Source: Azolla caroliniana
Lineage: Eukaryota; Plantae; Polypodiophyta
Reading direction: 5' to 3'
Length of the DNA: 64,000 nt
Assembly: GCA_043228905.1 (NCBI GenBank)
Contig: JBHGNT010000100.1
Location: forward strand, 1-64,000
In this document: in pieces, positions 41,101-64,000 of the stretch
Layout of the letters: each line of letters opens with the position of its first letter
Numbering within the stretch: position 1 is the stretch's first letter
The notes under the pieces: generated by a model
What the model was told of the DNA's origin: nothing
The model's database searches: none
The model's input: only the letters and a program-made list of their open reading frames with translations
Position numbers and translations under genes: made by a program

Positions 41101-44100
41101 GAATATTTTAACACAGAAATCCAATATCACACGAGCCAGGTATGAACCTTTTAATTTACTCAAGGGCTCTTCTCAACTCCATCCTCAAGTTTGCTAATAT
41201 TATTCATGTGTCTCGACCTGAGTTTCAAAATCTTGATTTTTTAATTCTATATCATAGCTAGCGTTGCTAGCTTCGATTCGCATATTTGAACACAGAAATC
41301 CGATATCACACGAGCCAGGTATGAACATTTTAATTTACTCAAGGGCTCTTCTCAACTCCCTCCTCAAGATTGCTAATTTCTTCATATCTCCTGACCTGAG
41401 TTTCAAAATCTTGATTTTTGAATTCTATATCATAGCTAGCGTTGCTAGCTTCGATTCGCATATTTGAACACAGAAATCCGATATCACACGAACCAGGTAT
41501 GAACATTTTAATTTACTCAAGGGCTCCTCTCAACTCCATCCTCAAGTTTGCTAATATTATTCATGTGTCTCGACCTGAGTTTCAAAATCTTGATTTTTGA
41601 ATTCTATATCATAGCTAGCGTTGCTAGCTTCGATTCGAATATTTGAACACAGAAATCCGATATCACACGAGCCAGGTATGAACATTTTAATTTACTCAAG
41701 GGCTCTTCTCAACTCCCTCCTTAAGTTTGCTAATTTCTTCATATCTCCTGACCTGAGTTTCAAAATCTTGATTTTTGAATTCTATATCATAGCTAGCGTT
41801 GCAAGCTTCGATTTGTATATTTGAACACAGAAATCCGATATCACACGAGCTAGGTATGAACATTTTAATTTACTCAAGGGCTCTTCTCAATTCCCTCCTC
41901 ATCTTTGCTAATTTCGTCATGTCTCTCGACCTGAGTTTCAAAATCTTGATTTTTGAATTCTATATCATAGCTCGCGTTGCTAGATTCGATTCGAATATTT
42001 GAACATAAAAATCCGATATCACACGTGCCAGGTATGAACATTTTAATTTACTTAAGGGCTCTTCTCAACTCCCTCCCCAAGTTTGCTAATTTCTTCATAT
42101 CTCCTGACCTGAGTTTCGAAATCTTGATTTTTGAATTCTATAGCATAGCTCGCGTTGCTAGCTTCCATTCGAATATTTTAACACAGAAATCCAATATCAC
42201 ACGAGCCAGGTATGAACCTTTTAATTTACTCAAGGGCTCTTCTCAACTCCCTCCATAAGTTTGCTAATTTCTTCATATCTCCTGACCTGAGTTTCAAAAT
42301 CTTGATTTTTGAATTCTATATCATAGCTCGCGTTGCTAGCTTCGATTCGAATATTTCAACTTCAAAATCCAATATCACACGAGCCAGGTATGAACATTTT
42401 AATTTACTCAAGGGCTCTTCTCAACTCCCTCCTCAAGTTTGCTAATTTCTTCATATCTCCTGACCTGAGTTTCAAAATATTGATTTTCGAATTCTATATC
42501 ATAGCTTGCGTTGCTACCTTCGAATCGCATATTTGAACACAGAAATCCGATATCACACGAGCCAGGTATGAACATTTTAATTTACTCAAGGGCTCTTCTC
42601 AACTCCCTCCTCAAGTTTGCTAATTTCGTCATGTCTCTCGACCTGAGTTTCAAAATCTTGATTTTTGAATTCTATATCATACCTAGCGTTGCTAGCTTCG
42701 ATTCGCATATTTGAACACAGAAATCCGATATCACACGAGCCAGGTATGAACATTTTAATTTACTCAAGGGCTCTTCTCAACTCCCTCCTTAAGTTTGCTA
42801 ATTTCTTCATATCTCCTGACCTGAGTTTCAAAATCTTGATTTTTGAATTCTATATCATAGCTAGCGTTGCTAGCTTCGATTTGTATATTTGAACACAGAA
42901 ATCCGATATCACACGAGCTAGGTATGAACATTTTAATTTACTCAAGGGCTCTTCTCAATTCCCTCCTCATCTTTGCTAATTTCGTCATGTCTCTCGACCT
43001 GAGTTTCAAAATCTTGATTTTTGAATTCTATATCATAGCTCGCGTTGCTAGATTCGATTCGAATATTTGAACATAAAAATCCGATATCACACGTGCCAGG
43101 TATGAACATTTTAATTTACTTAAGGGCTCTTCTCAACTCCCTCCCCAGGTTTGCTAATTTCTTCATATCTCCTGACCTGAGTTTCAAAATCTTGATTTTT
43201 GAATTCTATAGCATAGCTCGCGTTGCTAGCTTCCATTCGAATATTTTAACACAGAAATCCAATATCACACGAGCCAGGTATGAACCTTTTAATTTACTCA
43301 AGGGCTCTTCTCAACTCCCTCCATAAGTTTGTTAATTTCTTCATATCTCCTGACCTGAGTTTCAAAATCTTGATTTTTGAATTCTATATCATAGCTCGCG
43401 TTGCTAGCTTCGATTCGAATATTTCAACTTCAAAATCCAATATCACACGAGCCAGGTATGAACATTTTAATTTACTCAAGGGCTCCTCTCAACTCCATCC
43501 TCAAGTTTGCTAATATTATTCATGTGTCTCGACCTGAGTTTCAAAATCTTGATTTTTGAATTCTATATCATAGCTAGCGTTGCTAGCTTCGATTCGAATA
43601 TTTGAACACAGAAATCCGATATCACACGAGCCAGGTATGAACATTTTAATTTACTCAAGGGCTCTTCTCAACTCCCTCCTCAAGTTTGCTGATTTCTTCA
43701 TATCTCCTGACCTGAGTTTCAAAATCTTGATTTTTGAATTCTATATCATAGCTCGAGTTGCTAGGTTCGATGCGAATATTTGAACTTCAAAATCCGATAT
43801 CACACGAGCCAGGTATGAACATTTTAATTTACTCTAGGGCTCCTCTCAACTCCATCCTCAAGTTTGCTAATATTATTCATGTGTCTCGACCTGAGTTTCA
43901 AAATCTTGATTTTCTAATTCTATATCATAGCTAGCGTTGCTAGCTTCGATTCGCATATTTGAACACAGAAATCCGATATCACACGAGCCAGGTATGAACA
44001 TTTTAATTTACTCAAGGGCTCTTCTCAACTCCCTCCTCAAGATTGCTAATTTCTTCATATCTCCTGACCTGAGTTTCAAAATCTTGATTTTCTAATTCTA

Positions 44101-47100
44101 TATCATACCTAGCGTTGCTACCTTCGATTCGCATATTTGAACACAGAAATCTGATATCACACGAGCCAGGTATGAACATTTTAATTTACTCAAGGGCTCT
44201 TCTCAACTCCCTCCTCAAGTTTGCTAATTTCGTCATGTCTCTCGACCTGAGTTTCAAAATCTTGATTTTTGAATTCTATATGATACCTAGCGTTGCTAGG
44301 TTCGATTCGCATATTTGAACACAGAAATCCGATATCACACGAGCCAGGTATGAACATTTTAATTTACTCAAGGGCTCTTCTCAACTCCCTCCTCAAGTTT
44401 GCTAATTTCTTCATATCTCCTGACCTGAGTTTCAAAATATTGATTTTCGAATTCTATATCATAGCTTGCGTTGCTACCTTCGAATCGCATATTTGAACAC
44501 AGAAATCCGATATCACACGAGCCAGGTATGAACATTTTAATTTACTCAAGGGCTCTTCTCAACTCCATCTTCATCTTTGCTAATTTCGTCATGTCTCTCG
44601 ACCTGAGTTTCAAAATCTTGATTTTTGAATTCTATATCATACCTAGCGTTGCTAGCTTCGATTCGCATATTTGAACACAGAAATCCGATATCACACGAGC
44701 CAGGTATGAACATTTTAATTTACTCAAGGGCTCTTCTCAACTCCCTCCTTAAGTTTGCTAATTTCTTCATATCTCCTGACCTGAGTTTCAAAATCTTGAA
44801 TGTTGAATTCTATATCATACCTAGCGTTGCTACCTTCGATTCGCATATTTGAACACAGAAATCTGATATCACACGAGCCAGGTATGAACATTTTAATTTA
44901 CTCAAGGGCTCTTCTCAACTCCCTCCTCAAGTATTCTAATTTCTTCATATCTCCTGACCTGAGTTTCAAAATCTTGATTTTTGAATTCTATATCATAGCT
45001 CGAGTTGCTAGCTTCGATTCGCATATTTGAACTTCAAAATCGGATATCAGACGAGCCAAGTATGAACATTTTAATTTACTCAAGCGCTCTTCTCAACTCC
45101 ATCCTCATCTTTGCTAATTTCCTCATGTCTCTCGACCTGAGTTTCAAAATCTTGATTTTTTAATTCTATATCATAGCTAGCGTTGCTAGCTTCGATTCGC
45201 ATATTTGAACACAGAAATCCGATATCACACGAGCCAGGTATGAACATTTTAATTTACTCAAGGGCTCTTCTCAACTCCCTCCTCAAGATTGCTAATTTCT
45301 TCATATCTCCTGACCTGAGTTTCAAAATCTTGATTTTTGAATTCTATATCATAGCTAGCGTTGCTAGCTTCGATTCGCATATTTGAACACAGAAATCCGA
45401 TATCACACGAACCAGGTATGAACATTTTAATTTACTCAAGGGCTCCTCTCAACTCCATCCTCAAGTTTGCTAATATTATTCATGTGTCTCGACCTGAGTT
45501 TCAAAATCTTGATTTTTGAATTCTATATCATAGCTAGCGTTGCTAGCTTCGATTCGAATATTTGAACACAGAAATCCGATATCACACGAGCCAGGTATGA
45601 ACATTTTAATTTACTCAAGGGCTCTTCTCAACTCCCTCCTTAAGTTTGCTAATTTCTTCATATCTCCTGACCTGAGTTTCAAAATCTTGATTTTTGAATT
45701 CTATATCATAGCTAGCGTTGCAAGCTTCGATTTGTATATTTGAACACAGAAATCCGATATCACACGAGCTAGGTATGAACATTTTAATTTACTCAAGGGC
45801 TCTTCTCAATTCCCTCCTCATCTTTGCTAATTTCGTCATGTCTCTCGACCTGAGTTTCAAAATCTTGATTTTTTAATTCTATATCATAGCTCGCGTTGCT
45901 AGATTCGATTCGAATATTTGAACATAAAAATCCGATATCACACGTGCCAGGTATGAACATTTTAATTTACTTAAGGGCTCTTCTCAACTCCCTCCCCAAG
46001 TTTGCTAATTTCTTCATATCTCCTGACCTGAGTTTCGAAATCTTGATTTTTGAATTCTATAGCATAGCTCGCGTTGCTAGCTTCCATTCGAATATTTTAA
46101 CACAGAAATCCAATATCACACGAGCCAGGTATGAACCTTTTAATTTACTCAAGGGCTCTTCTCAACTCCCTCCATAAGTTTGCTAATTTCTTCATATCTC
46201 CTGACCTGAGTTTCAAAATCTTGATTTTTGAATTCTATATCATAGCTCGCGTTGCTAGCTTCGATTCGAATATTTCAACTTCAAAATCCAATATCACACG
46301 AGCCAGGTATGAACATTTTAATTTACTCAAGGGCTCTTCTCAACTCCCTCCTTAAGTTTGCTAATTTCTTCATATCTCCTGACCTGAGTTTCAAAATATT
46401 GATTTTCGAATTCTATATCATAGCTTGCGTTGCTACCTTCGAATCGCATATTTGAACACAGAAATCCGATATCACACGAGCCAGGTATGAACATTTTAAT
46501 TTACTCAAGGGCTCTTCACAACTCCCTCCTCAAGTTTGCTAATTTCGTCATGTCTCTCGACCTGAGTTTCAAAATCTTGATTTTTGAATTCTATATCATA
46601 CCTAGCGTTGCTAGCTTCGATTCGCATATTTGAACACAGAAATCCGATATCACACGAGCCAGGTATGAACATTTTAATTTACTCAAGGGCTCTTCTCAAC
46701 TCCCTCCTTAAGTTTGCTAATTTCTTCATATCTCCTGACCTGAGTTTCAAAATCTTGATTTTTGAATTCTATATCATAGCTAGCGTTGCTAGCTTCGATT
46801 TGTATATTTGAACACAGAAATCCGATATCACACGAGCTAGGTATGAACATTTTAATTTACTCAAGGGCTCTTCTCAATTCCCTCCTCATCTTTGCTAATT
46901 TCGTCATGTCTCTCGACCTGAGTTTCAAAATCTTGATTTTTGAATTCTATATCATAGCTCGCGTTGCTAGATTCGATTCGAATATTTGAACATAAAAATC
47001 CGATATCACACGTGCCAGGTATGAACATTTTAATTTACTTAAGGGCTCTTCTCAACTCCCTCCCCAGGTTTGCTAATTTCTTCATATCTCCTGACCTGAG

Positions 47101-50100
47101 TTTCAAAATCTTGATTTTTGAATTCTATAGCATAGCTCGCGTTGCTAGCTTCCATTCGAATATTTTAACACAGAAATCCAATATCACACGAGCCAGGTAT
47201 GAACCTTTTAATTTACTCAAGGGCTCTTCTCAACTCCCTCCATAAGTTTGTTAATTTCTTCATATCTCCTGACCTGAGTTTCAAAATCTTGATTTTTGAA
47301 TTCTATATCATAGCTCGCGTTGCTAGCTTCGATTCGAATATTTCAACTTCAAAATCCAATATCACACGAGCCAGGTATGAACATTTTAATTTACTCAAGG
47401 GCTCCTCTCAACTCCATCCTCAAGTTTGCTAATATTATTCATGTGTCTCGACCTGAGTTTCAAAATCTTGATTTTTGAATTCTATATCATAGCTAGCGTT
47501 GCTAGCTTCGATTCGAATATTTGAACACAGAAATCCGATATCACACGAGCCAGGTATGAACATTTTAATTTACTCAAGGGCTCTTCTCAACTCCCTCCTC
47601 AAGTTTGCTGATTTCTTCATATCTCCTGACCTGAGTTTCAAAATCTTGATTTTTGAATTCTATATCATAGCTCGAGTTGCTAGGTTCGATGCGAATATTT
47701 GAACTTCAAAATCCGATATCACACGAGCCAGGTATGAACATTTTAATTTACTCTAGGGCTCCTCTCAACTCCATCCTCAAGTTTGCTAATATTATTCATG
47801 TGTCTCGACCTGAGTTTCAAAATCTTGATTTTGTAATTCTATATCATAGCTAGCGTTGCTAGCTTCGATTCGCATATTTGAACACAGAAATCCGATATCA
47901 CACGAGCCAGGTATGAACATTTTAATTTACTCAAGGGCTCTTCTCAACTCCCTCCTCAAGATTGCTAATTTCTTCATATCTCCTGACCTGAGTTTCAAAA
48001 TCTTGATTTTCTAATTCTATATCATACCTAGCGTTGCTACCTTCGATTCGCATATTTGAACACAGAAATCTGATATCACACGAGCCAGGTATGAACATTT
48101 TAATTTACTCAAGGGCTCTTCTCAACTCCCTCCTCAAGTTTGCTAATTTCGTCATGTCTCTCGACCTGAGTTTCAAAATCTTGATTTTTGAATTCTATAT
48201 GATACCTAGCGTTGCTAGGTTCGATTCGCATATTTGAACACAGAAATCCGATATCACACGAGCCAGGTATGAACATTTTAATTTACTCAAGGGCTCTTCT
48301 CAACTCCCTCCTCAAGTTTGCTAATTTCTTCATATCTCCTGACCTGAGTTTCAAAATATTGATTTTCGAATTCTATATCATAGCTTGCGTTGCTACCTTC
48401 GAATCGCATATTTGAACACAGAAATCCGATATCACACGAGCCAGGTATGAACATTTTAATTTACTCAAGGGCTCTTCTCAACTCCATCTTCATCTTTGCT
48501 AATTTCGTCATGTCTCTCGACCTGAGTTTCAAAATCTTGATTTTTGAATTCTATATCATACCTAGCGTTGCTAGCTTCGATTCGCATATTTGAACACAGA
48601 AATCCGATATCACACGAGCCAGGTATGAACATTTTAATTTACTCAAGGGCTCTTCTCAACTCCCTCCTTAAGTTTGCTAATTTCTTCATATCTCCTGACC
48701 TGAGTTTCAAAATCTTGATTTTTGAATTCTATATCATAGCTAGCGTTGCTAGCTTCGATTTGTATATTTGAACACAGAAATCCGATATCACACGAGCTAG
48801 GTATGAACATTTTAATTTACTCAAGGGCTCTTCTCAATTCCCTCCTCATCTTTGCTAATTTCGTCATGTCTCTCGACCTGAGTTTCAAAATCTTGATTTT
48901 TGAATTCTATATCATAGCTCGCGTTGCTAGATTCGATTCGAATATTTGAACATAAAAATCCGATATCACACGTGCCAGGTATGAACATTTTAATTTACTT
49001 AAGGGCTCTTCTCAACTCCCTCCCCAAGTTTGCTAATTTCTTCATATCTCCTGACCTGAGTTTCAAAATCTTGATTTTTGAATTCTATAGCATAGCTCGC
49101 GTTGCTAGCTTCCATTCGAATATTTTAACACAGAAATCCAATATCACACGAGCCAGGTATGAACCTTTTAATTTACTCAAGGGCTCTTCTCAACTCCCTC
49201 CATAAGTTTGCTAATTTCTTCATATCTCCTGACCTGAGTTTCAAAATCTTGATTTTTGAATTCTATATCATAGCTCGCGTTGCTAGCTTCGATTCGAATA
49301 TTTCAACTTCAAAATCCAATATCACACGAGCCAGGTATGAACATTTTAATTTACTCAAGGGCTCCTCTCAACTCCATCCTCAAGTTTGCTAATATTATTC
49401 ATGTGTCTCGACCTGAGTTTCAAAATCTTGATTTTTGATTTCTATATCATAGCTAGCGTTGCTAGCTTCGATTCGAATATTTGAACACAGAAATCCGATA
49501 TCACACGAGCCAGGTATGAACATTTTAATTTACTCAAGGGCTCTTCTCAACTCCCTCCTCAAATTTGCTAATTTCTTCATATCTCCTGACCTGAGTTTCA
49601 AAATCTTGATTTTTGAATTCTATATCATAGCTCGAGTTGCTAGGTTCGATGCGAATATTTGAACTTCAAAATCCGATATCACACGAGCCAGGTATGAACA
49701 TTTTAATTTACTCTAGGGCTCTTCTCAACTCCCTCCTCAAATTTGCTAATTTCTTCATATCTCCTGACCTGAGTTTCAAAATCTTGATTTTCTAATTCTA
49801 TATCATACCTAGCGTTGCTACCTTCGATTCGCATATTTGAACACAGAAATCTGATATCACACGAGCCAGGTATGAACATTTTAATTTACTCAAGGGCTCA
49901 TCTTAACTCCCTCCTCAAGTTTGCTAATTTCGTCATGTCTCTCGACCTGAGTTTCAAAATCTTGATTTTTGAATTCTATATCATAGCTAGCGTTGCTAGC
50001 TTCGATTCGCATATTTGAACACAGAAATCCGATATCACACGAGCCAGGTATGAACATTTTAATTTACTCAAGGGCTCTTCTCAACTCCCTCCTCAAGTTT

Positions 50101-51061
50101 GCTAATTTCTTCATATCTCCTGACCTGAGTTTCAAAATCTTGATTTTTGAATTCTATATCATAGCTCGAGTTGCTAGCTTCGATTCGAATATTTGAACTT
50201 CAAAATCCGATATCACACGAGCCAGGTATGAACATTTTAATTTACTCAAGGGCTCCTCTCAACTCCATCCTCAAGTTTGCTAATATTATTCATGTGTCTC
50301 GACCTGAGTTTCAAAATCTTGATTTTTGAATTCTATATCATAGCTAGCGTTGCTAGCTTCGATTCGAATATTTGAACACAGAAATCCGATATCACACGAG
50401 CCAGGTATGAACATTTTAATATACTCAAGGGCTCTTCTCAACTCCCTCCTCAAGTTTGCTAATTTCTTCATATCTCCTGACCTGAGTTTCAAAATCTTGA
50501 ATGTTGAATTCTATATCATACCTAGCGTTGCTACCTTCGATTCGCATATTTGAACACAGAAATCTGATATCACACGAGCCAGGTATGAACATTTTAATTT
50601 ACTCAAGGGCTCTTCTCAACTCCCTCCTCAAGTTTTCTAATTTCTTCATATCTCCTGACCTGAGTTTCAAAATCTTGATTTTTGAATTCTATATCATAGC
50701 TCGAGTTGCTAGCTTCGATTCGCATATTTGAACTTCAAAATCCGATATCAGACGAGCCAAGTATGAACATTTTAATTTACTCAAGCGCTCTTCTCAACTC
50801 CATCCTCATCTTTGCTAATTTCCTCATGTCTCTCGACCTGAGTTTCAAAATCGTGATTTTTGAATTCTATATCATAGCTAGCGTTGCTAGCTTCGATTCG
50901 CATATTTGAACACAGAAATCCGATATCACACGAGCCAGGTATGAACATTTTAATTTACTCAAGGGCTCTTCTCAACTCCCTCCTCAAGTTTGCTAATTTC
51001 TTCATATCTCCTGACCTGAGTTTCAAAATCTTGATTTTTGAATTCTATATCATAGCTTGCG
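17151..51061. repeat. Satellite subfamily A, domain A2 (includes 179-bp variant monomers; 6-, 7-, 11-, 19- and 22-monomer duplications)
   Basis: New marker monomers appear: GATTTGTATATTTG (first ~17574), GAACATAAAAATCCGATATCACACGTGCC (first ~17765) and a 179-bp monomer with GCTAATATTATTCATGTGTCTC (first ~18205). The left boundary is approximate. Confidence 0.8.
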
Positions 51062-52330
51062 CGATTCGCATGTTTGAACACAAAAATCCGATATCACACG
51101 AGCCAGGTATGAACATTTTAATTTACTCAAGGGCTTCTCTCAACTCACTCCTCAAATTTGGTAATTTCGTCATGTCTCGCGACCTGAGTTTCAAAATCTT
51201 GATTTTTTAACTCCATATCATAGGTAGCATTGTTAGCTTCGATTCGCATGTTTGAACACAAAAATCCGATATCACACGAGCCAGGTATGAACATTTTAAT
51301 TTAACTCATAGCTCTTCTTAACTCACTCCTCAAATTTGGTAATTTCGTCATGTCTCTCGACCTGAGTTTGAAAATCTTGATTTTTTAATTCCATATCATA
51401 GCTAGCGTTGTTAGCTTCGATTCGCATGTTTGAACACAAAATTCGGATATCACACGAGCCAGGTATGAACATTTTAATTTACTCAAGGGCTTCTCTCAAC
51501 TCACTCCTCAAATTTGGTAATCTCATCATGTCTCTCGACCTGAGTTTGAAAATCTTGATATTTTAATTCCATATCATAGCTAGCGTTGTTAGCTTCTATT
51601 CGCATGTTTGAACACAAAAATCCGATATCACACGAGCCAGGTATGAACATTTTAATTTAACTCATAGCTCTTCTTAACTCACTCCTCAAATTTAGTAATT
51701 TCGTCATGTCTCTCGACCTGAGTTTGAAAATCTTGATTTTTTAATTCTATATCATAGCTAGCGTTGTTAGCTTCGATTCGCATGTTTGAACACAAAAATC
51801 CGATATCACACGAGCCAGGTATGAACATTTTAATTTAACTCATAGCTCTTCTTAACTCACTCCTCAAATTTGGTATTTTCGTCATGTCTCTCGACCTGAG
51901 TTTCAAAATCTTGATTTTCTAATTCTATATCACAGCTAGTGTTGTTAGCTTCGATTCGCTTGTTTGAACACAAAAATCCGATATCACACGAGCCAGGTAT
52001 GAACATTTTAATTTACTCAAGGGCTTCTCTGAACTCACTCCTCAAATTTAGTAATCTCATCATGTCTTCCGACCTGAGTTTCAAAATCTTGATTTTTTAA
52101 TTCCATATCATAGCTAGCGTTGTTAGCTTCGATTCGCATGTTTGAACACAAAAATCCGATATCACACGAGCCAGGTATGAACATTTTAATTTAACTCATA
52201 GCTCTTCTTAACTCACTCCTCAAATTTGGTAATTTCGTCATGCCTCTCGACCTGAGTTTGAAAATCTTGATTTTCTAATTCTATATCACAGCTAGTGTTG
52301 TTAGCTTCGATTCGCTTGTTTGAACACAAA
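51062..52330. repeat. Satellite subfamily B island (~7 monomers)
   Basis: Carries the B diagnostics GTTGTTAGC, GCATGTTTGAACACAAAAATCC, CACTCCTCAAATTTGGTAAT and GGGCTTCTCTC or TAACTCATAGCTCTTCTT. It starts at a 10-bp deletion (51061/51062) and reverts to A within the invariant block at 52330-52381. Confidence 0.92.
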
Positions 52331-53900
52331 AATCCGATATCACACGAGCCAGGTATGAACATTTTAATTTACTCAAGGGCTCTTCTCAACTCCCTCCTCA
52401 AATTTGCTAATTTCTTCATATCTCCTGACCTGAGTTTCAAAATCTTGATTTTTGAATTCTATATCATAGCTCGAGTTGCTAGGTTCGATGCGAATATTTG
52501 AACTTCAAAATCCGATATCACACGAGCCAGGTATGAACATTTTAATTTACTCTAGGGCTCTTCTCAACTCCCTCCTCAAATTTGCTAATTTCTTCATATC
52601 TCCTGACCTGAGTTTCAAAATCTTGATTTTCTAATTCTATATCATACCTAGCGTTGCTACCTTCGATTCGCATATTTGAACACAGAAATCTGATATCACA
52701 CGAGCCAGGTATGAACATTTTAATTTACTCAAGGGCTCATCTTAACTCCCTCCTCAAGTTTGCTAATTTCGTCATGTCTCTCGACCTGAGTTTCAAAATC
52801 TTGATTTTTGAATTCTATATCATAGCTAGCGTTGCTAGCTTCGATTCGCATATTTGAACACAGAAATCCGATATCACACGAGCCAGGTATGAACATTTTA
52901 ATTTACTCAAGGGCTCTTCTCAACTCCCTCCTCAAGTTTGCTAATTTCTTCATATTTCCTGACCTGAGTTTCAAAATCTTGATTTTTGAATTCTATATCA
53001 TAGCTCGAGTTGCTAGCTTCGATTCGAATATTTGAACTTCAAAATCCGATATCACACGAGCCAGGTATGAACATTTTAATTTACTCAAGGGCTCCTCTCA
53101 ACTCCATCCTCAAGTTTGCTAATATTATTCATGTGTCTCGACCTGAGTTTCAAAATCTTGATTTTTGAATTCTATATCATAGCTAGCGTTGCTAGCTTCG
53201 ATTCGAATATTTGAACACAGAAATCCGATATCACACGAGCCAGGTATGAACATTTTAATATACTCAAGGGCTCTTCTCAACTCCCTCCTCAAGTTTGCTA
53301 ATTTCTTCATATCTCCTGACCTGAGTTTCAAAATCTTGAATGTTGAATTCTATATCATACCTAGCGTTGCTACCTTCGATTCGCATATTTGAACACAGAA
53401 ATCTGATATCACACGAGCCAGGTATGAACATTTTAATTTACTCAAGGGCTCTTCTCAACTCCCTCCTCAAGTTTTCTAATTTCTTCATATCTCCTGACCT
53501 GAGTTTCAAAATCTTGATTTTTGAATTCTATATCATAGCTCGAGTTGCTAGCTTCGATTCGCATATTTGAACTTCAAAATCCGATATCAGACGAGCCAAG
53601 TATGAACATTTTAATTTACTCAAGCGCTCTTCTCAACTCCATCCTCATCTTTGCTAATTTCCTCATGTCTCTCGACCTGAGTTTCAAAATCGTGATTTTT
53701 GAATTCTATATCATAGCTAGCGTTGCTAGCTTCGATTCGCATATTTGAACACAGAAATCCGATATCACACGAGCCAGGTATGAACATTTTAATTTACTCA
53801 AGGGCTCTTCTCAACTCCCTCCTCAAGTTTGCTAATTTCTTCATATCTCCTGACCTGAGTTTCAAAATCTTGATTTTTGAATTCTATATCATAGCTTGCG
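52331..53900. repeat. Satellite subfamily A block, duplicate of ~49492-51061
   Basis: Private variants recur at a 2839-bp offset (GGGCTCATCTT at ~49894 and ~52733; AAAATCGTGAT at ~50847 and ~53686; ORFs 49815/52654 and 50884/53723). Confidence 0.92.
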
Positions 53901-56900
53901 CGATTCGCATGTTTGAACACAAAAATCCGATATCACACGAGCCAGGTATGAACATTTTAATTTACTCAAGGGCTTCTCTCAACTCACTCCTCAAATTTGG
54001 TAATTTCGTCATGTCTCGCGACCTGAGTTTCAAAATCTTGATTTTTTAACTCCATATCATAGGTAGCATTGTTAGCTTCGATTCGCATGTTTGAACACAA
54101 AAATCCGATATCACACGAGCCAGGTATGAACATTTTAATTTAACTCATAGCTCTTCTTAACTCACTCCTCAAATTTGGTAATTTCGTCATGTCTCTCGAC
54201 CTGAGTTTGAAAATCTTGATTTTTTAATTCCATATCATAGCTAGCGTTGTTAGCTTCGATTCGCATGTTTGAACACAAAATTCGGATATCACACGAGCCA
54301 GGTATGAACATTTTAATTTACTCAAGGGCTTCTCTCAACTCACTCCTCAAATTTGGTAATCTCATCATGTCTCTCGACCTGAGTTTGAAAATCTTGATAT
54401 TTTAATTCCATATCATAGCTAGCGTTGTTAGCTTCGATTCGCATGTTTGAACACAAAAATCCGATATCACACGAGCCAGGTATGAACATTTTAATTTAAC
54501 TCATAGCTCTTCTTAACTCACTCCTCAAATTTAGTAATTTCGTCATGTCTCTCGACCTGAGTTTGAAAATCTTGATTTTTTAATTCTATATCATAGCTAG
54601 CGTTGTTAGCTTCGATTCGCATGTTTGAACACAAAAATCCGATATCACACGAGCCAGGTATGAACATTTTAATTTAACTCATAGCTCTTCTTAACTCACT
54701 CCTCAAATTTAGTAATTTCGTCATGTCTCTCGACCTGAGTTTGAAAATCTTGATTTTTTAATTCTATATCATAGCTAGCGTTGTTAGCTTCGATTCGCAT
54801 GTTTGAACACAAAAATCCGATATCACACGAGCCAGGTATGAACATTTTAATTTAACTCATAGCTCTTCTTAACTCACTCCTCAAATTTGGTATTTTCGTC
54901 ATGTCTCTCGACCTGAGTTTCAAAATCTTGATTTTCTAATTCTAAATCACAGCTAGTGTTGTTAGCTTCGATTCGCTTGTTTGAACACAAAAATCCGATA
55001 TCACACGAGCCAGGTATGAACATTTTAATTTACTCAAGGGCTTCTCTGAACTCACTCCTCAAATTTAGTAATCTCATCATGTCTCTCGACCTGAGTTTGA
55101 AAATCTTGATTTTTTAATTCCATATCATAGCTAGCGTTGTTAGCTTCGATTCGCATGTTTGAACACAAAATTCGGATATCACACGAGCCAGGTATGAACA
55201 TTTTAATTTACTCAAGGGCTTCTCTCAACTCACTCCTCAAATTTGGTAATCTCATCATGTCTCTCGACCTGAGTTTGAAAATCTTGATATTTTAATTCCA
55301 TATCATAGCTAGCGTTGTTAGCTTCGATTCGCATGTTTGAACACAAAAATCCGATATCACACGAGCCAGGTATGAACATTTTAATTTAACTCATAGCTCT
55401 TCTTAACTCACTCCTCAAATTTAGTAATTTCGTCATGTCTCTCGACCTGAGTTTGAAAATCTTGATTTTTTAATTCTATATCATAGCTAGCGTTGTTAGC
55501 TTCGATTCGCATGTTTGAACACAAAAATCCGATATCACACGAGCCAGGTATGAACATTTTAATTTAACTCATAGCTCTTCTTAACTCACTCCTCAAATTT
55601 GGTATTTTCGTCATGTCTCTCGACCTGAGTTTCAAAATCTTGATTTTCTAATTCTAAATCACAGCTAGTGTTGTTAGCTTCGATTCGCTTGTTTGAACAC
55701 AAAAATCCGATATCACACGAGCCAGGTATGAACATTTTAATTTACTCAAGGGCTTCTCTGAACTCACTCCTCAAATTTAGTAATCTCATCATGTCTTTCG
55801 ACCTGAGTTTCAAAATCTTGATTTTTTAATTCCATATCATAGCTAGCGTTGTTAGCTTCGATTCGCATGTTTGAACACAAAAATCCGATATCACACGAGC
55901 CAGGTATGAACATTTTAATTTAACTCATAGCTCTTCTTAACTCACTCCTCAAATTTGGTAATTTCGTCATGCCTCTCGACCTGAGTTTGAAAATCTTGAT
56001 TTTTTAATTCCATATCATAGCTAGCGTTGTTAGCTTCGATTCGCATGTTTGAACACAAAAATCCGATATCACACGAGCCAGGTATGAACATTTTAATTTA
56101 CTCAAGGGCTTCTCTCAACTCACTCCTCAAATTTGGTAATTTCGTCATATCTCGCGACCTGAGTTTCAAAATCTTGATTTTTTAACTCCATATCATAGCT
56201 AGCATTGTTAGCTTCGATTCGCATGTTTGAACACAAAAATCCGATATCACACGAGCCAGGTATGAACATTTTAATTTAACTCATAGCTCTTCTTAACTCA
56301 CTCCTCAAATTTGGTAATCTCATCATGTCTCTCGACCTGAGTTTAAAAATCTTGATTTTTTAATTCCATATCATAGCTAGCGTTTTTAGCTTCGATTCGC
56401 ATGTTTGAACACAAAAATCCGATATCACACGAGCCAGGTATGAACATTTTAATTTACTCAAGGGCTTCTCTCAACTCACTCCTCAAATTTGGTAATCTCA
56501 TCATGTCTCTCGACTTGAGTTTGAAAATCTTGATTTTTTAATTCCATATCATAGCTAGCGTTGTTAGCTTCGATTCGCATGTTTGAACACAACAATCCGA
56601 TCTCACACGAGCCAGGTATGAACATTTTAATTTACTCAAGGGCTTCTCTGAAATCACTCCTCAAATTTGGTAATCTCATCATGTCTTTCGACCTGAGTTT
56701 CAAAATCTTGATTTTTTAATTCCATATCATAGCTAGCGTTGTTAGCTTCGATTCGCATGTTTGAACACAAAAATCCGATATCACACGAGCCAGGTATGAA
56801 CATTTTAATTTAACTCATAGCTCTTCTTAACTCACTCCACAAATTTGGTAATTTCGTCATGTCTCTCGACCTGAGTTTGAAAATCTTGATTTTTTAATTC

Positions 56901-59900
56901 CATATCATAGCTAGCGTTGTTAGCTTCGATTCGCATGTTTGAACACAAAATTCGGATATCACACGAGCCAGGTATGAACATTTTAATTTACTCAAGGGCT
57001 TCTCTCAACTCACTCCTCAAATTTGGTAATCTCATCATGACTCTCGACCTGAGTTTGAAAATCTTGATTTTTTAATTCCATATCATAGCTAGCGTTGTTA
57101 GCTTCGATTCGCATGTTTGAACACAAAAATCCGATATCACACGAGCCAGGTATGAACATTTTAATTTAACTCATAGCTCTTCTTAACTCACTCCTCAAAT
57201 TTGGTAATTTCGTCATGTCTCTCGACCTGAGTTTGAAAATCTTGATTTTTTAATTCCATATCATAGCTAGCGTTGTTAGCTTCGATTCGCATGTTTGAAC
57301 ACAAAATTCGGATATCACACGAGCCAGGTATGAACATTTTAATTTACTCAAGGGCTTCTCTCAACTCACTCCTCAAATTTGGTAATTTCGTCATATCTCG
57401 CGACCTGAGTTTCAAAATCTTGATTTTCTAATTCTATATCACAGCTAGTGTTGTTAGCTTCGATTCGCTTGTTTGAACACAAAAATCCGATATCACACGA
57501 GCCAGGTATGAACATTTTAATTTACTCAAGGGCTTCTCTCAACTCACTCCTCAAATTTGGTAATCTCATCATGTCTCTCAACTTGAGTTTGAAAATCTTG
57601 ATTTTTTAATTCCATATCATAGCTAGCGTTGTTAGCTTCGATTCGCATGTTTGAACACAAAAATCCGATATCACACGAGCCAGGTATGAACATTTTAATT
57701 TAACTCATAGCTCTTCTTAACTCACTCCTCAAATTTGGTATTTTCGTCATGTCCCTCGACCTGAGTTTCAAAATCTTGATTTTCTAATTCTATATCATCT
57801 CTAGCGTTGTTAGCTTCGATTCGCATGTTTGAACACAAAAATCCGATATCACACGAGCCAGGTATGTACATTTTAATTTACTCAAGGGCTTCTCTCAACT
57901 CACTCCTCAAATTTGGTAATTTCGTCATATCTCGCGACCTGAGTTTCAAAATCTTGATTTTCTAATTCTATATCACAGCTAGTGTTGTTAGCTTCGATTC
58001 GCTTGTTTGAACACAAAAATCCGATATCACACGAGCCAGGTATGAACATTTTAATTTACTCAAGGGCTTCTCTCAACTCACTCCTCAAATTTGGTAATCT
58101 CATCATGTCTCTCGACTTGAGTTTGAAAATCTTGATTTTTTAATTCCATATCATAGCTAGCGTTGTTAGCTTCGATTCGCATGTTTGAACACAAAAATCC
58201 GATATCACACGAGCCAGGTATGAACATTTTAATTTACTCAAGGGCTTCTCTGAACTCACTCCTCAAATTTGGTAATCTCATCATGTCTTTCGACCTGAGT
58301 TTCAAAATCTTGATTTTTTAATTCCATATCATAGCTAGCGTTGTTAGCTTCGATTCGCATGTTTGAACACAAAAATCCGATATCACACGAGCCAGGTATG
58401 AACATTTTAATTTAACTCATAGCTCTTCTTAACTCACTCCTCAAATTTGGTATTTTCGTCATGTCTCTCGACCTGAGTTTCAAAATCTTGATTTTCTAAT
58501 TCTATATCACAGCTAGTGTTGTTAGCTTCGATTCGCTTGTTTGAACACAAAAATCCGATATCACACGAGCCAGGTATGAACATTTTAATTTACTCAAGGG
58601 CTTCTCTCAACTCACTCCTCAAATTTGGTAATCTCATCATGTCTCTCGACCTGAGTTTGAAAATCTTGATTTTTTAATTCCATATCATAGCTAGCGTTGT
58701 TAGCTTCGATTCGCATGTTTGAACACAAAAATCCGATATCACACGAGCCAGGTATGACCATTTTAATTTAACTCATAGCTCTTCTTAACTCACTCCTCAA
58801 ATTTGGTAATTTCGTCATGTCTCTCGACCTGAGTTTGAAAATCTTGATTTTTTAGTTCTATATGATAGCTAGCGTTGTTAGCTTCGATTCGCATGTTTGA
58901 ACACAAAATTCGGATATCACACGAGCCAGGTATGAACATTTTAATTTACTCAAGGGCTTCTCTGAACTCACTCCTCAAATTTGGTAATCTCATCATGTCT
59001 CTCGACCTGAGTTTGAAAATCGTGATTTTTTAACTCCATATCATAGCTAGCGTTGTTAGCTTCGATTCGCATGTTTGAACACAAAAATCCGATATCACAA
59101 GAGCCAGGTATGAACATTCTAATTTACTCAAGGGCTTCTCTCAACTCACTCCTCAAATTTGGTAATTTCGTCATGTCTCGCGACCTGAGTTTGAAAATCT
59201 TGATTTTTTAATTCCATATCATAGCTAGCGTTGTTAGCTTCGATTCGCATGTTTGAACACAAAAATCCGATATCACACGAGCCAGGTATGAACATTTTAA
59301 TTTACTCAAGGGCTTCTCTGAACTCACTCCTCAAATTTGGTAATCTCATCATGTCTTTCGACCTGAGTTTCAAAATCTTGATTTTTTAATTCCATATCAT
59401 AGCTAGCGTTGTTAGCTTCGATTCGCATGTTTGAACACAAAAATCCGATATCACACGAGCCAGGTATGAACATTTTAATTTAACTCATAGCTCTTCTTAA
59501 CTCACTCCTCAAATTTAGTAATTTCGTCATGTCTCTCGACCTGAGTTTGAAAATCTTGATTTTTTAATTCCATATCATAGCTAGCGTTGTTAGCTTCGAT
59601 TCGCATGTTTGAACACAAAATTCGGATATCACACGAGCCAGGTATGAACATTTTAATTTACTCAAGGGCTTCTCTCAACTCACTCCTCAAATTTGGTAAT
59701 CTCATCATGTCTCTCGACCTGAGTTTGAAAATCTTGATTTTTTAATTCCATATCATAGCTAGCGTTGTTAGCTTCGATTCGCATGTTTGAACACAAAAAT
59801 CCGATATCACACGAGCCAGGTATGAACATTTTAATTTAACTCATAGCTCTTCTTAACTCACTCCTCAAATTTAGTAATTTCGTCATGTCTCTCGACCTGA

Positions 59901-62900
59901 GTTTGAAAATCTTGATTTTTTAATTCTATATCATAGCTAGCGTTGTTAGCTTCGATTCGCATGTTTGAACACAAAAATCCGATATCACACGAGCCAGGTA
60001 TGAACATTTTAATTTACTCAAGGGCTTCTCTGAACTCACTCCTCAAATTTGGTAATCTCATCATGTCTTTCGACCTGAGTTTCAAAATCTTGATTTTTTA
60101 ATTCCATATCATAGCTAGCGTTGTTAGCTTCGATTCGCATGTTTGAACACAAAAATCCGATATCACACGAGCCAGGTATGAACATTTTAATTTACTCAAG
60201 GGCTTCTCTCAACTCACTCCTCAAATTTGGTAATTTCGTCATATCTCGCGACCTGAGTTTCAAAATCTTGATTTTCTAATTCTATATCACAGCTAGTGTT
60301 GTTAGCTTCGATTCGGTTGTTTGAACACAAAAATCCGATATCACACGAGCCAGGTATGAACATTTTAATTTACTCAAGGGCTTCTCTCAACTCACTCCTC
60401 AAATTTGGTAATCTCATCATGTCTCTCGACTTGAGTTTGAAAATCTTGATTTTTTAATTCCATATCATAGCTAGCGTTGTTAGCTTCGATTCGCATGTTT
60501 GAACACAAAAATCCGATATCACACGAGCCAGGTATGAACATTTTAATTTACTCAAGGGCTTCTCTGAACTCACTCCTCAAATTTGGTAATCTCATCATGT
60601 CTTTCGACCTGAGTTTCAAAATCTTGATTTTTTAATTCCATATCATAGCTAGCGTTGTTAGCTTCGATTCGCATGTTTGAACACAAAAATCCGATATCAC
60701 ACGAGCCAGGTATGAACATTTTAATTTACTCAAGGGCTTCTCTCAACTCACTCCTCAAATTTGGTAATTTCGTCATATCTCGCGACCTGAGTTTCAAAAT
60801 CTTGATTTTCTAATTCTATATCACAGCTAGTGTTGTTAGCTTCGATTCGCTTGTTTGAACACAAAAATCCGATATCACACGAGCCAGGTATGAACATTTT
60901 AATTTACTCAAGGGCTTCTCTCAACTCACTCCTCAAATTTGGTAATCTCATCATGTCTCTCGACTTGAGTTTGAAAATCTTGATTTTTTAATTCCATATC
61001 ATAGCTAGCGTTGTTAGCTTCGATTCGCATGTTTGAACACAAAAATCCGATATCACACGAGCCAGGTATGAACATTTTAATTTACTCAAGGGCTTCTCTG
61101 AACTCACTCCTCAAATTTGGTAATCTCATCATGTCTTTCGACCTGAGTTTCAAAATCTTGATTTTTTAACTCCATATCATAGCTAGCATTGTTAGCTTCG
61201 ATTCGCATGTTTGAACACGAAAATCCGATATCACACGAGCCAGGTATGAACATTTTAATTTAACTCATAGCTCTTCTTAACTCACTCCTCAAATTTGGTA
61301 TTTTCGTCATGTCTCTCGACCTGAGTTTCAAAATCTTGATTTTCTAATTCTATATCACAGCTAGTGTTGTTAGCTTCGATTCGCTTGTTTGAACACAAAA
61401 ATCCGATATCACACGAGCCAGGTATGAACATTTTAATTTACTCAAGGGCTTCTCTCAACTCACTCCTCAAATTTGGTAATCTCATCATGTCTCTCGACCT
61501 GAGTTTGAAAATCTTGATTTTTTAATTCCATATCATAGCTAGCGTTGTTAGCTTCGATTCGCATGTTTGAACACAAAAATCCGATATCACACGAGCCAGG
61601 TATGAACATTTTAATTTAACTCATAGCTCTTCTTAACTCACTCCTCAAATTTAGTAATTTCGTCATGTCTCTCGACCTGAGTTTGAAAATCTTGATTTTT
61701 TAATTCCATATCATAGCTAGCGTTGTTAGCTTCGATTCGCATGTTTGAACACAAAATTCGGATATCACACGAGCCAGGTATGAACATTTTAATTTACTCA
61801 AGGGCTTCTCTCAACTCACTCCTCAAATTTGGTAATCTCATCATGTCTCTCGACCTGAGTTTGAAAATCTTGATTTTTTAATTCCATATCATAGCTAGCG
61901 TTGTTAGCTTCGATTCGCATGTTTGAACACAAAAATCCGATATCACACGAGCCAGGTATGAACATTTTAATTTAACTCATAGCTCTTCTTAACTCACTCC
62001 TCAAATTTAGTAATTTCGTCATGTCTCTCGACCTGAGTTTGAAAATCTTGATTTTTTAATTCTATATCATAGCTAGCGTTGTTAGCTTCGATTCGCATGT
62101 TTGAACACAAAAATCCGATATCACACGAGCCAGGTATGAACATTTTAATTTACTCAAGGGCTTCTCTGAACTCACTCCTCAAATTTGGTAATCTCATCAT
62201 GTCTTTCGACCTGAGTTTCAAAATCTTGATTTTTTAATTCCATATCATAGCTAGCGTTGTTAGCTTCGATTCGCATGTTTGAACACAAAAATCCGATATC
62301 ACACGAGCCAGGTATGAACATTTTAATTTACTCAAGGGCTTCTCTCAACTCACTCCTCAAATTTGGTAATTTCGTCATATCTCGCGACCTGAGTTTCAAA
62401 ATCTTGATTTTTTAACTCCATATCATAGCTAGCATTGTTAGCTTCGATTCGCATGTTTGAACACGAAAATCCGATATCACACGAGCCAGGTATGAACATT
62501 TTAATTTAACTCATAGCTCTTCTTAACTCACTCCTCAAATTTGGTATTTTCGTCATGTCTCTCGACCTGAGTTTCAAAATCTTGATTTTCTAATTCTATA
62601 TCACAGCTAGTGTTGTTAGCTTCGATTCGCTTGTTTGAACACAAAAATCCGATATCACACGAGCCAGGTATGAACATTTTAATTAACTCAAGGGCTTCTC
62701 TCAACTCACTCCTCAAATTTGGTAATCTCATCATGTCTCTCGACCTGAGTTTCAAAATCTTGATTTTTTAATTCCATATCATAGCTAGCGTTGTTAGCTT
62801 CGATTCGCATGTTTGAACACAAAAATCCGATATCACACGAGCCAGGTATGAACATTTTAATTTACTCAAGGGCTTCTCTGAACTCACTCCTCAAATTTGG

Positions 62901-63386
62901 TAATCTCATCATGTATTTCGACCTGAGTTTCAAAATCTTGATTTTTTAATTCCATATCATAGCTAGCGTTGTTAGCTTCGATTCGCATGTTTGAACACAA
63001 AAATCCGATATCACACGAGCCAGGTATGAACATTTTAATTTACTCAAGGGCTTCTCTCAACTCACTCCTCAAATTTGGTAATTTCGTCATGTCTCGCGAC
63101 CTGAGTTTCAAAATCTTGATTTTTTAACTCCATATCATAGCTAGCATTGTTAGCTTCGATTCGCATGTTTGAACACAAAAATCCGATATCACACGAGCCA
63201 AGTATGAACATTTTAATTTACTCAAGGGCTTCTCTCAACTCACTCCTCAATTTTGGTAATTTCGTCATGTCATATCATAGCTAGCATTGTTAGCTTCGAT
63301 TCGCATGTTTGAACACAAAAATCCGATATCACACGAGCCAGGTATGAACATTTTAATTTAACTCATAGCTCTTCTTAACTCACTCC
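53901..63386. repeat. Satellite subfamily B domain (~53 monomers)
   Basis: B diagnostics throughout, with two interspersed monomer types (TACTCAAGGGCTTCTCTC and TAACTCATAGCTCTTCTT). B lacks the GAATTC (EcoRI) site common in A. Confidence 0.95.
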
Positions 63387-63457
63387 TGTCATAACTAGAC
63401 TCGAACCCATAACCTTTTGTTACACGGGTCGAGACTTTACCATTAGGTTATGAATTG
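63387..63457 (-). other. Degenerate tRNA-like unit with Pol III A box and B box at the U3 end of the LTR
   Basis: The minus strand reads CAATTCA-TAACCTAATGGTAAAGT-CTCGACCCGTGTAACAAA-AGGTT-ATGGGTTCGAGTCTAGT-TATGACA. An A-box-like TAACCTAATGG lies at 63450-63440 and a B box GGTTCGAGTCT at 63407-63397, with tRNA-canonical spacing. Acceptor and anticodon stems do not pair, so it is not a functional tRNA. Confidence 0.6.
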
Positions 63458-63509
63458 TAATTTGAAGGATATTATTTTCATTTAGGTTTTATTGGGAAAT
63501 TGATGTATA

Positions 63510-63557
63510 TTCCAGATTTCTCTGGAACATTCTAGAAACTTCAGGAGTATTCCTGAA
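63510..63557. promoter_or_regulatory. Heat-shock element array (alternating nGAAn/nTTCn, 10 in-phase units)
   Basis: TTC-ca-GAT-tt-CTC-tg-GAA-ca-TTC-ta-GAA-ac-TTC-ag-GAG-ta-TTC-ct-GAA: 7 of 10 units are perfect, including four consecutive perfect units at 63525-63542. This matches the established HSF binding consensus. Confidence 0.78.
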
Positions 63558-63562
63558 GACAC

Positions 63563-63570
63563 TGTAAAAG
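63563..63570 (+). promoter_or_regulatory. TATA-like box of the LTR promoter
   Basis: TGTAAAAG (one mismatch to TATAAAAG) lies just downstream of the HSE array and ~30 bp upstream of the transcription start predicted independently from the self-primer (63596). Confidence 0.55.
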
Positions 63571-63595
63571 GAGGCGCAAGGCATTAGTTCGAACC

Positions 63596-63607
63596 AAATC
63601 GGTTCAA
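63596..63607 (+). other. Predicted self-primer (5' end of the transcript, start of R)
   Basis: AAATCGGTTCAA is the exact reverse complement of TTGAACCGATTT at 63854-63865. Confidence 0.75.
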
Positions 63608-63676
63608 CGCCAGTCTTAAGCCTTCTAACTACTGTTGTATATCTTCCGTCATATAATACATATATCTTTCGCATCA

Positions 63677-63680
<4 letters not shown>

Positions 63681-63718
<38 letters not shown>
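63681..63718. repeat. (TC)19 microsatellite within the LTR
   Basis: Perfect 38-bp TC dinucleotide run. Confidence 0.98.
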
Positions 63719-63722
<4 letters not shown>

Positions 63723-63752
63723 ATTCCTTCTCTCAAAGTTCGACACCTCTCA

Positions 63753-63819
63753 TAGTACTAATCGTTCTCTGTCTTAGTACTATTCCCCAACAATAGTACT
63801 AATCCTTCTTTTAGTACTA
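63753..63819. repeat. Four copies of the palindrome TAGTACTA in the U5 part of the LTR
   Basis: TAGTACTA at 63753, 63775, 63794 and 63812 (spacing 22, 19, 18 bp), each followed by a short pyrimidine-rich stretch. Confidence 0.9.
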
Positions 63820-63853
63820 ATTCCTTCTCTGCCTTAATAGAGTTCCTGACAGT

Positions 63854-63865
63854 TTGAACCGATTT
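63854..63865 (+). other. Primer binding site, self-priming type
   Basis: Begins 2 nt after the LTR end (TGACA-GT-TTGAACCGATTT). It lacks the TGG start expected for pairing with a tRNA CCA end and is complementary to 63596-63607. Confidence 0.75.
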
Positions 63866-63939
63866 TGACTACTAGTCTCCCTCTTCCTTCTGTCTCCCTC
63901 CTTTCCTACTAGTCTCTTATTTCCCTTTTCCTTCATCCC

Positions 63940-64000
63940 ATGGCCACCGTTAGCGCTGAAGAGTATCAATCCGTTTTCTCGGAATTTCAATGCTTGAAAG
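63940..64000 (+). CDS. Probable gag/gag-pol N-terminus, truncated by the window edge (MATVSAEEYQSVFSEFQCLK...)
   Basis: First ATG after the PBS and leader, context CCCATGG, with 20 open codons to the window end. The product is inferred from position only. Confidence 0.5.
   Translation, partial: MATVSAEEYQSVFSEFQCLK

What the first reader, a model, noticed from the sequence alone, without database searches (positions are those of the whole stretch)
63596..63865. tRNA-independent self-priming signature (Tf1/sushi type)
The 12 nt at the PBS position (63854-63865) are the perfect reverse complement of 63596-63607, which begins ~30 bp after the TATA-like box where the transcript should start. In S. 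pombe Tf1 the first 11 nt of the mRNA anneal to the PBS and are cleaved to prime reverse transcription, and similar complementarity is known in related fungal and vertebrate chromoviruses. No TGG-type tRNA PBS is present. In DNA the primer also overlaps a hairpin GAACC-AAATC-GGTTC, so transcripts starting further upstream would sequester it (inference).
Basis: partly seen in the sequence, partly recalled or inferred. Interest (0 to 1): 0.75.

Follow-up and report, generated by a model that had tools for sequence, protein, structure and literature searches.

The report
Self-priming retrotransposon in a water fern
A young jumping gene in a water-fern genome has no tRNA docking site and likely starts copying itself from the first 12 letters of its own RNA, a trick known from yeast Tf1 and predicted for mosses; scrambled copies elsewhere in the genome likely record where that RNA is cut.

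Summary
Observation confirmed: 63854-63865 is the perfect complement of 63596-63607, 33 nt after the TATA position of the 5' LTR (63387-63851) of a complete 5.76-kb Ty3/gypsy chromovirus inserted in a 178-bp satellite. No TGG-type PBS is present. Related families each pair their own, different PBS with their own LTR at the same spacing; a tRNA-Met-primed family does not. The RT falls outside the tRNA-primed plant chromovirus clade. Copies are hypervariable exactly where the pairing ends. 65 rearranged sites run from PBS into inverted U3; their R copies stop from +11 onward, never at +1..+10, as a cut RNA predicts, and 6 of 16 tested carry a target-site duplication. Self-priming is likely (~0.9) but unproven: no transcript start could be mapped. 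The mechanism is known (Tf1) and predicted in print for moss/club-moss Tcn1 elements, and the scan noted it before in moss genomes. New here: a fern host (plastid rps14 97% to Azolla), the genomic 'fossils', no detectable Tf1 'pretzel' side arms, and an antisense tRNA-like cassette in U3.

The parts
1..63381 (.). 178-bp tandem satellite array that hosts the insertion; it resumes after the 3' LTR
63382..63386 (+). 5-bp target-site duplication ACTCC (second copy right after the 3' LTR, L021 5952-5956)
63387..63851 (+). 5' LTR, 465 bp, TGTCA...TGACA; 5 differences from the 3' LTR (young insertion)
63391..63452 (-). antisense tRNA-like cassette (A-box- and B-box-like words at tRNA spacing) at the 5' edge of U3; function unknown
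   Evidence: nhmmer with a profile of host tRNAs, E=4e-4, best reversed control E=2.4; no Rfam tRNA hit
63563..63569 (+). TATA box position; this copy has a private substitution at 63564
63587..63595 (+). U3 arm of a hairpin that pairs with the primer's 3' part (63601-63608); likely masks the 3'-LTR copy of the primer (inferred)
63596..63607 (+). predicted self-primer = predicted first 12 nt of the RNA (start of R)
63852..63853 (+). 2-nt spacer between LTR end and PBS
63854..63865 (+). primer-binding site, complementary to 63596-63607
63866..63868 (+). hypervariable junction right behind the PBS (27 variants in 47 copies), the likely end of plus-strand strong-stop DNA
63940..64000 (+). start of gag (389 aa; continues beyond the window, followed by pol PR-RT-RH-IN-chromodomain in another frame, PPT and 3' LTR)
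   Evidence: L021 741-1910 and 1883-5494

Best explanation
This is the 5' end of a complete, recently inserted Ty3/gypsy chromovirus of the Tf1/sushi type in a water-fern genome, and it likely primes reverse transcription with its own RNA instead of a tRNA. Shown: element anatomy, the 12-bp complementarity, its family-specific covariation at a fixed distance from TATA, and the genomic scars. Inferred steps: (1) Pol II starts at about 63596; (2) the first 12 nt fold back onto the PBS; (3) the RNA is cut at about +12/+13, by analogy with Tf1 probably by the element's RNase H, and the 12-mer primes minus-strand DNA through U5 and R; (4) plus-strand strong-stop DNA copies the primer to its 5' end, where RT adds untemplated bases or copies the cap, which mutates the bases just behind the PBS at each cycle; (5) now and then a strand ending in the primer sequence with U3 attached (nascent plus strand, or the cut 3'-LTR copy of R) is extended on the PBS, leaving integrated U3-primer-inverted(U5-R) scars whose R part ends where the cut template began.
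For: Chance 6/20,000. The RNA from 63596 folds with the 12-bp duplex in both MFE and centroid, z=-4.8. 79 of 84 copies keep the exact pair; one copy has a two-sided change in primer (both LTRs) and PBS; the other 4 are one single-base insertion in the primer, one rearranged PBS and two 5' LTRs that the script did not read correctly. In a 17-element matrix with 12 distinct PBS types, each PBS matches its own LTR by 9-12 nt and other families' by at most 8 (elements picked because they matched). Unselected set: of 30 Gag-domain loci in the genome, 26 had the LTR-end/PBS motif, 24 of those paired >=9 of 11 nt, 23 of them 33-34 nt after a TATA-like word; 2 failed, 4 lacked the motif. Control: 5 of 5 delimited tRNA-Met-primed elements have no self-match of even 6 nt. 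RT-RH tree: tRNA-Met-primed elements of this genome plus Closterium and Asteraceae rows form a clade (100/99) without the window element. Junction: columns 1-14 after the LTR are nearly invariant, column 15 is T46/C30/G6/A2; 27 variants in 47 copies against 1-3 in neighbouring 5-mers; Tf1 RT is reported to add untemplated bases (PMC11042837, passage). Scars: 42 sites in this family group and 23 in family B; R copies end at +11..+21 in 10 of 32 and 4 of 15 independent truncated events, at +1..+10 in none; 6 of 16 fetched whole have one TSD around the rearranged element, so they formed before integration; none shows the pattern of a plain DNA inversion between the two 12-mers.
Against: No transcript start was measured; no raw RNA reads were offered. 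The +11..+21 window was chosen after seeing the data, so its P values (2e-6 and 0.04) are optimistic, and breakpoints further 3' are blurred by subfamily divergence. A transcript starting at about +12 would give the same breakpoints. The two-sided change is at a CpG and could be two independent decays. A milder hot spot also follows the 12-nt PBS of the tRNA-Met control family (T27/A7/G1 of 35), so junction variability marks the end of primer copying but not the kind of primer. The Tf1 'pretzel' side arms are not detectable in this element (273 and 257 of 300 shuffles as good). Organelle-type tRNAs match 11 nt of the site through their T arm. No TSD was found for 10 of the 16 scars.
Confidence: 0.9

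Rival explanations
1. The site is primed by an internal tRNA fragment (T arm), and the LTR match is incidental.
For: Four genomic tRNA loci carry a T arm matching 11 nt of the PBS region; ARAGORN calls them tRNA genes, one beside plastid genes. The tRNA sample was incomplete (62 Rfam matches, 44 distinct calls).
Against: These are organelle-type tRNAs and the match is internal, not a 3' end or anticodon half. Sister families have unrelated PBS sequences that each track their own LTR. The LTR match (12 nt) is longer than the best tRNA match (11 nt).
Confidence: 0.03
2. The complementarity is an RNA structure for another purpose (packaging, dimerisation, strand transfer or translation), and priming uses some other cellular RNA.
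For: Covariation shows pairing, not priming. The pretzel side arms that Tf1 needs are missing here.
Against: Invariant position 2 nt after the LTR end, sharp mutational boundary at the end of the duplex, and TSD-flanked scars in which the primer sequence runs directly into a copy of U5-R that stops just behind the primer.
Confidence: 0.06
3. Chance match or assembly artefact.
For: Short match; the window lies on a small satellite contig.
Against: 6/20,000 by shuffling; 267 exact LTR-end/PBS junctions genome-wide, many on chromosome-size scaffolds, and the 20 copies read have different flanks.
Confidence: 0.01

Closest known systems
Tf1/Tf2 of Schizosaccharomyces pombe and the Tf1/sushi group (bioRxiv 10.1101/2022.12.06.519325, passages; PMC11042837, passages)
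   Same: Chromodomain-bearing Ty3/gypsy element; PBS complementary to the predicted 5' end of its own RNA; no tRNA site; signs of untemplated additions at cDNA ends.
Plant Tcn1-clade chromoviruses (REXdb, PMC6317226, passages; SM-Tcn1, PMC2864245, passages; PMC3350952, passages)
   Same: About 5.7 kb, two ORFs, about 450-bp LTRs, 5-bp TSD, chromodomain with the three aromatic residues, no tRNA PBS; self-priming predicted for most members.
   Different: Reported only from mosses and Selaginella; a PCR survey of 26 ferns and horsetails found none. This host is a fern. No Tcn1 reference sequence was on hand, so clade membership is untested. The prediction in print rests on complementarity alone, without the scars shown here.
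Helenus / TRIMp3 (PMC10886601, passages)
   Same: tRNA-like sequence inside the LTR.
   Different: Helenus is non-autonomous and tRNA-primed; here a decayed antisense tRNA-like cassette sits at the 5' edge of U3 of autonomous, Pol II-type elements.

Membership tests
Ty3/gypsy chromovirus | gag, then PR-RT-RH-IN order with C-terminal chromodomain; LTRs, TSD, PPT | tested here: met
   Pfam hits in that order incl. PF00385 at aa 1129-1179; TSD and PPT
Tf1/sushi group | no tRNA PBS; >=10-nt complement of the PBS inside the 5' LTR (REXdb rule) | tested here: met
   12 nt, 2 nt after the LTR end
Tf1/sushi group | RT groups with fungal/vertebrate chromoviruses, not with tRNA-primed plant clades | tested here: met
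   outside the 100/99 clade of tRNA-Met-primed plant rows; nearest named proteins are fungal (Absidia 65%, Cunninghamella 61%) and amphibian/fish (51-61%) against 43-52% for seed plants. The backbone among fungal and vertebrate rows is unresolved and Tf1 and sushi themselves were not in the tree.
Tf1/sushi group | primer is the 5' end of the transcript | not testable with these tools
   no raw RNA reads; indirect support from TATA spacing and scars
Tf1/sushi group | cleavage of the primer from the RNA | tested here: inconclusive
   scar breakpoints start at +11 and avoid +1..+10; indirect
Tf1-type three-duplex 'pretzel' structure | two further duplexes between PBS-flanking sequence and R-U5 | tested here: not met
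   window element: leader arm 273/300, U5-end arm 257/300 shuffles as good; leader arm absent in all 11 fern-type rows, present (<=3/300) in 6 of 6 distant environmental rows; U5-end arm significant in 2 of the 11 fern-type rows
Tcn1 clade | phylogenetic grouping with Tcn1, PpatensLTR, SM-Tcn1 | not tested
   no named reference among the hits
Tcn1 clade | group I chromodomain with aromatic cage | tested here: met
   Y...W..Y read directly in the Pol translation; residue scheme from PMC3350952
Tcn1 clade | host range moss or Selaginella (descriptive, not defining) | tested here: not met
   plastid rps14 in the assembly 97% to Azolla filiculoides, 91% to Salvinia, all named hits ferns
tRNA-Met-primed plant chromoviruses (Reina, Tekay, CRM, Galadriel) | PBS complementary to the tRNA-Met 3' end | tested here: not met
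   no TGG site; such a family exists in this genome and is a separate clade

The most novel reading that the evidence does not exclude
Fern Tf1/sushi-type chromoviruses use a distinct variant of self-priming: they have dropped the Tf1 pretzel's leader arm and carry a U3 decoy hairpin, co-evolving with primer and PBS, that hides the 3'-LTR copy of the primer; failures of this guard are fixed in the genome as dozens of integrated primer-plus-strong-stop chimeras that map the cleavage site, the first physical trace of self-priming in a plant, in a lineage (ferns) said to lack these elements.
Probability: 0.4. Interest if true: 0.65.

Novelty: new variant of a known kind. Interest (0 to 1): 0.45.

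Why it matters
In the passages I read, self-priming is traced to experiments on fission-yeast Tf1, and in plants it is a prediction from complementarity. The scars give a genome-only read-out of where the primer is cut, usable on any proposed self-priming family (Tcn1, TAR copia and others). At least four high-copy self-priming families in a fern extend the range beyond mosses and Selaginella and bear on the debated fungus-to-plant horizontal transfer. The missing pretzel arm suggests that the structural needs of the reaction differ between lineages. The basic mechanism itself is not new.

Tried and rejected
Transcript start from public runs: 24 runs listed, all contigs, none raw RNA; laying 4 of them gave no start or end information. 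Rfam: no tRNA or other real family in the LTR. Sequestration of the primer by modest upstream starts: not supported. U3 hairpin significance is weak for the window's own family (38 of 300 shuffles as good), strong for B, C and one environmental row (0-4 of 300), absent in D and the distant rows. A plain DNA inversion between primer and PBS as source of the scars: rejected, since none has primer plus inverted leader at the far junction. A looser alignment of scar ends wandered and was discarded (redone). Centromere/satellite targeting: not supported, 1 of 84 copies (the window's) has a satellite flank, though such arrays are under-assembled. One environmental group (L178, L179, L189, L193, L197, L205-L207, L209, L210) matched its LTR by only 8-11 nt far 3' in the LTR and was not counted as support; most of the 79 environmental loci lacked a usable 5' LTR. 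The RT under L402 belongs to another insertion and was ignored in the tree. Named moss or Selaginella references: none found. Two primary Tf1 sources could not be read, so the Tf1 cut site and the role of RNase H are recalled. Literature: no paper on the scars, the U3 hairpin or Tcn1 in ferns turned up in listings; the library lacks most subscription journals, and supplements (REXdb element tables, fern genome repeat tables) were not read and may list fern Tcn1.

Full report
Setting. The window is G000:C100:1-64000 of a 523-Mb eukaryote assembly. Almost all of it is a 178-bp satellite. At 63387 a retrotransposon begins. The neighbouring stretch L021 shows it whole: 465-bp LTRs differing at 5 positions, TSD ACTCC, a PPT, gag (389 aa) and pol (1203-aa frame) with protease, RT, RNase H, integrase and a chromodomain. 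The exact LTR-end/PBS junction occurs 267 times in the genome. A note from the scan (e1-10617911) called this genome a fern, which I tested: plastid rps14 from the assembly is 97% identical to Azolla filiculoides and 91% to Salvinia, and all named hits are ferns.

Observation. Confirmed exactly: 63854-63865 is the reverse complement of 63596-63607, 2 nt after the LTR end; such a match arose in 6 of 20,000 shuffles. The primer starts 33 nt after the TATA position; 83 of 84 copies have a regular TATA there and the window's 5' LTR alone has a substitution. RNA folded from 63596 forms the duplex in both MFE and centroid structures (z -4.8).

Covariation. Within the family 79 of 84 copies keep the pair, and one has matching changes in both LTRs and the PBS; a sister subfamily has fixed the same two-sided change. 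Other families in the genome (RT 61-64% identical for B and C) and environmental relatives have different PBS sequences, each matched by its own LTR about 31-36 nt after a TATA-like word: in a 17 x 17 matrix own matches are 9-12 nt and cross-family matches at most 8 (rows chosen because they matched, and some environmental contigs may come from related ferns). In an unselected set of 30 Gag loci, 26 had the LTR-end motif; 11 paired 11 of 11 nt, 11 paired 10, 2 paired 9 and 2 failed. Five tRNA-Met-primed elements of the same genome have no self-match. A tRNA primer cannot explain a site that changes with the LTR. The best tRNA match found was 11 nt to the T arm of organelle-type tRNAs, from an incomplete tRNA sample.

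Phylogeny. In a 48-row RT-RNase H tree the tRNA-Met-primed family, Closterium and Asteraceae rows form a 100/99 clade that excludes the window element; it sits in an unresolved backbone with fungal and vertebrate rows (L400 and L406 gave no RT piece, L404 was too short). The nearest named proteins are from Mucoromycota fungi at 61-65%. No Tcn1, Tf1 or sushi reference was available, so Tcn1 membership is untested.

Scar 1: the junction. The 14 bases after the LTR are nearly invariant in 84 copies; the 15th, first behind the duplex, is T46/C30/G6/A2. One subfamily shows 27 junction variants in 47 copies, another 16 in 35, against 1-3 variants in neighbouring 5-mers. This fits plus-strand strong-stop DNA ending at the primer's 5' end with untemplated additions, which Tf1 RT makes (PMC11042837, passages). 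The tRNA-Met control shows a weaker hot spot at the end of its own 12-nt site, so this marks where primer copying ends, not what the primer is; here that place is the edge of the self-complement.

Scar 2: primer-strong-stop chimeras. At 42 sites (family A group) and 23 sites (family B) the PBS runs straight into inverted U3. Read the other way, these are U3 + primer + a reverse copy of U5 and R + a jump to internal sequence. Of the 42, 7 continue into U3, 1 was unresolved, 2 were duplicates, and 32 are independent truncations: 10 end at +11..+21, none at +1..+10. Of the 23, 2 are complete, 1 unresolved, 5 duplicates, 15 truncations: 4 at +11..+21, none at +1..+10. Six of 16 fetched whole have one TSD around the rearranged element, and two whole-LTR forms have TSDs too, so they arose during reverse transcription. 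They show that a strand ending in the primer is extended on PBS-U5-R, and that the template usually lacked its first ~11 nt, as a Tf1-type cut predicts. Caveats: the window was chosen after the fact; a start at about +12 would look the same; I cannot tell whether the U3-bearing strand was nascent plus-strand DNA or the 3' R copy of the RNA.

Structure. Tf1 needs a three-duplex 'pretzel' (bioRxiv 2022.12.06.519325, passages). In the window element neither side arm beats shuffles; the leader arm is missing in all 11 fern-type rows but strong in 6 of 6 distant environmental rows. It does raise pairing of the primer's last 8 nt in the 3'-LTR context (unpaired probability 0.50 to 0.13), so masking of the second copy is my inferred role.

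Comparison with print. Neumann et al. [quoted passage not shown] Novikova et al. 2010 (PMC2864245, passages) found no Tcn1-like clones in 26 ferns and horsetails and no priming signal in SM-Tcn1. I found no paper on fern Tcn1, on these scars or on the U3 hairpin in the listings; coverage of subscription journals is poor and supplements were not read. The scan has noted the same signature in moss genomes (e1-7226285, e1-7364707). The Tf1 cut position and the role of RNase H are recalled, not read.

Verdict. A real, young, self-priming-type chromovirus; mechanism likely (0.9) and of a known kind. What is added is the fern host, the genomic scars of the reaction, the changed RNA structure and an antisense tRNA-like cassette in U3 (compare Helenus, PMC10886601, passages). 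New variant of a known kind; interest 0.45.

Noticed in passing
window 63391-63452, minus strand; also L235, L304, L312, L296, L141: Antisense tRNA-like cassette near the 5' edge of U3 in several autonomous families (nhmmer E 1e-5 to 2e-3 in 6 of 21 LTR regions, weaker in 4 more; none in family C, the distant rows or the tRNA-Met control). Possible Pol III/TFIIIC site acting as insulator or outward promoter; resembles Helenus but in autonomous elements.
   Followed up: partly
L309/L365 (G000:C2:3115534) and L343 (G000:C4:19610140): TSD-flanked mini-elements made of one whole LTR + PBS + inverted U3, TG...CA at both ends: integrated fold-back products.
   Followed up: partly
L021 1896-1945 (just beyond the window): gag/pol overlap with a slippery-site-like heptamer followed 6 nt later by an 11-bp hairpin (-16 kcal/mol): likely -1 frameshift signal (motif type recalled).
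   Followed up: partly
window 63564 and L021 gag zinc knuckle: This copy has private substitutions in the 5' TATA box (1 of 84) and at the last knuckle cysteine (1 of 28 family copies read), so it may be impaired although both ORFs are open.
   Followed up: yes
window 1-63381: 178-bp satellite, 354-355 copies in the window at 91-100% identity, centromere-like monomer length.
   Followed up: no
first base after the PBS, families B, C and environmental rows: Often C (27 of 31 in family B; 30 of 84 in family A), as copying of the RNA cap would give; inference only.
   Followed up: partly
L035, L057: Tandem copies sharing an LTR or joined through a PBS remnant, like the integrase-independent tandem insertions described for Tf1 (PMC11042837, passages).
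   Followed up: no
L221-L226, L423-L452: A single-ORF (1479 aa) tRNA-Met-primed chromovirus-side family with 283 exact LTR-end/PBS junctions, branching between Closterium and seed-plant rows.
   Followed up: partly
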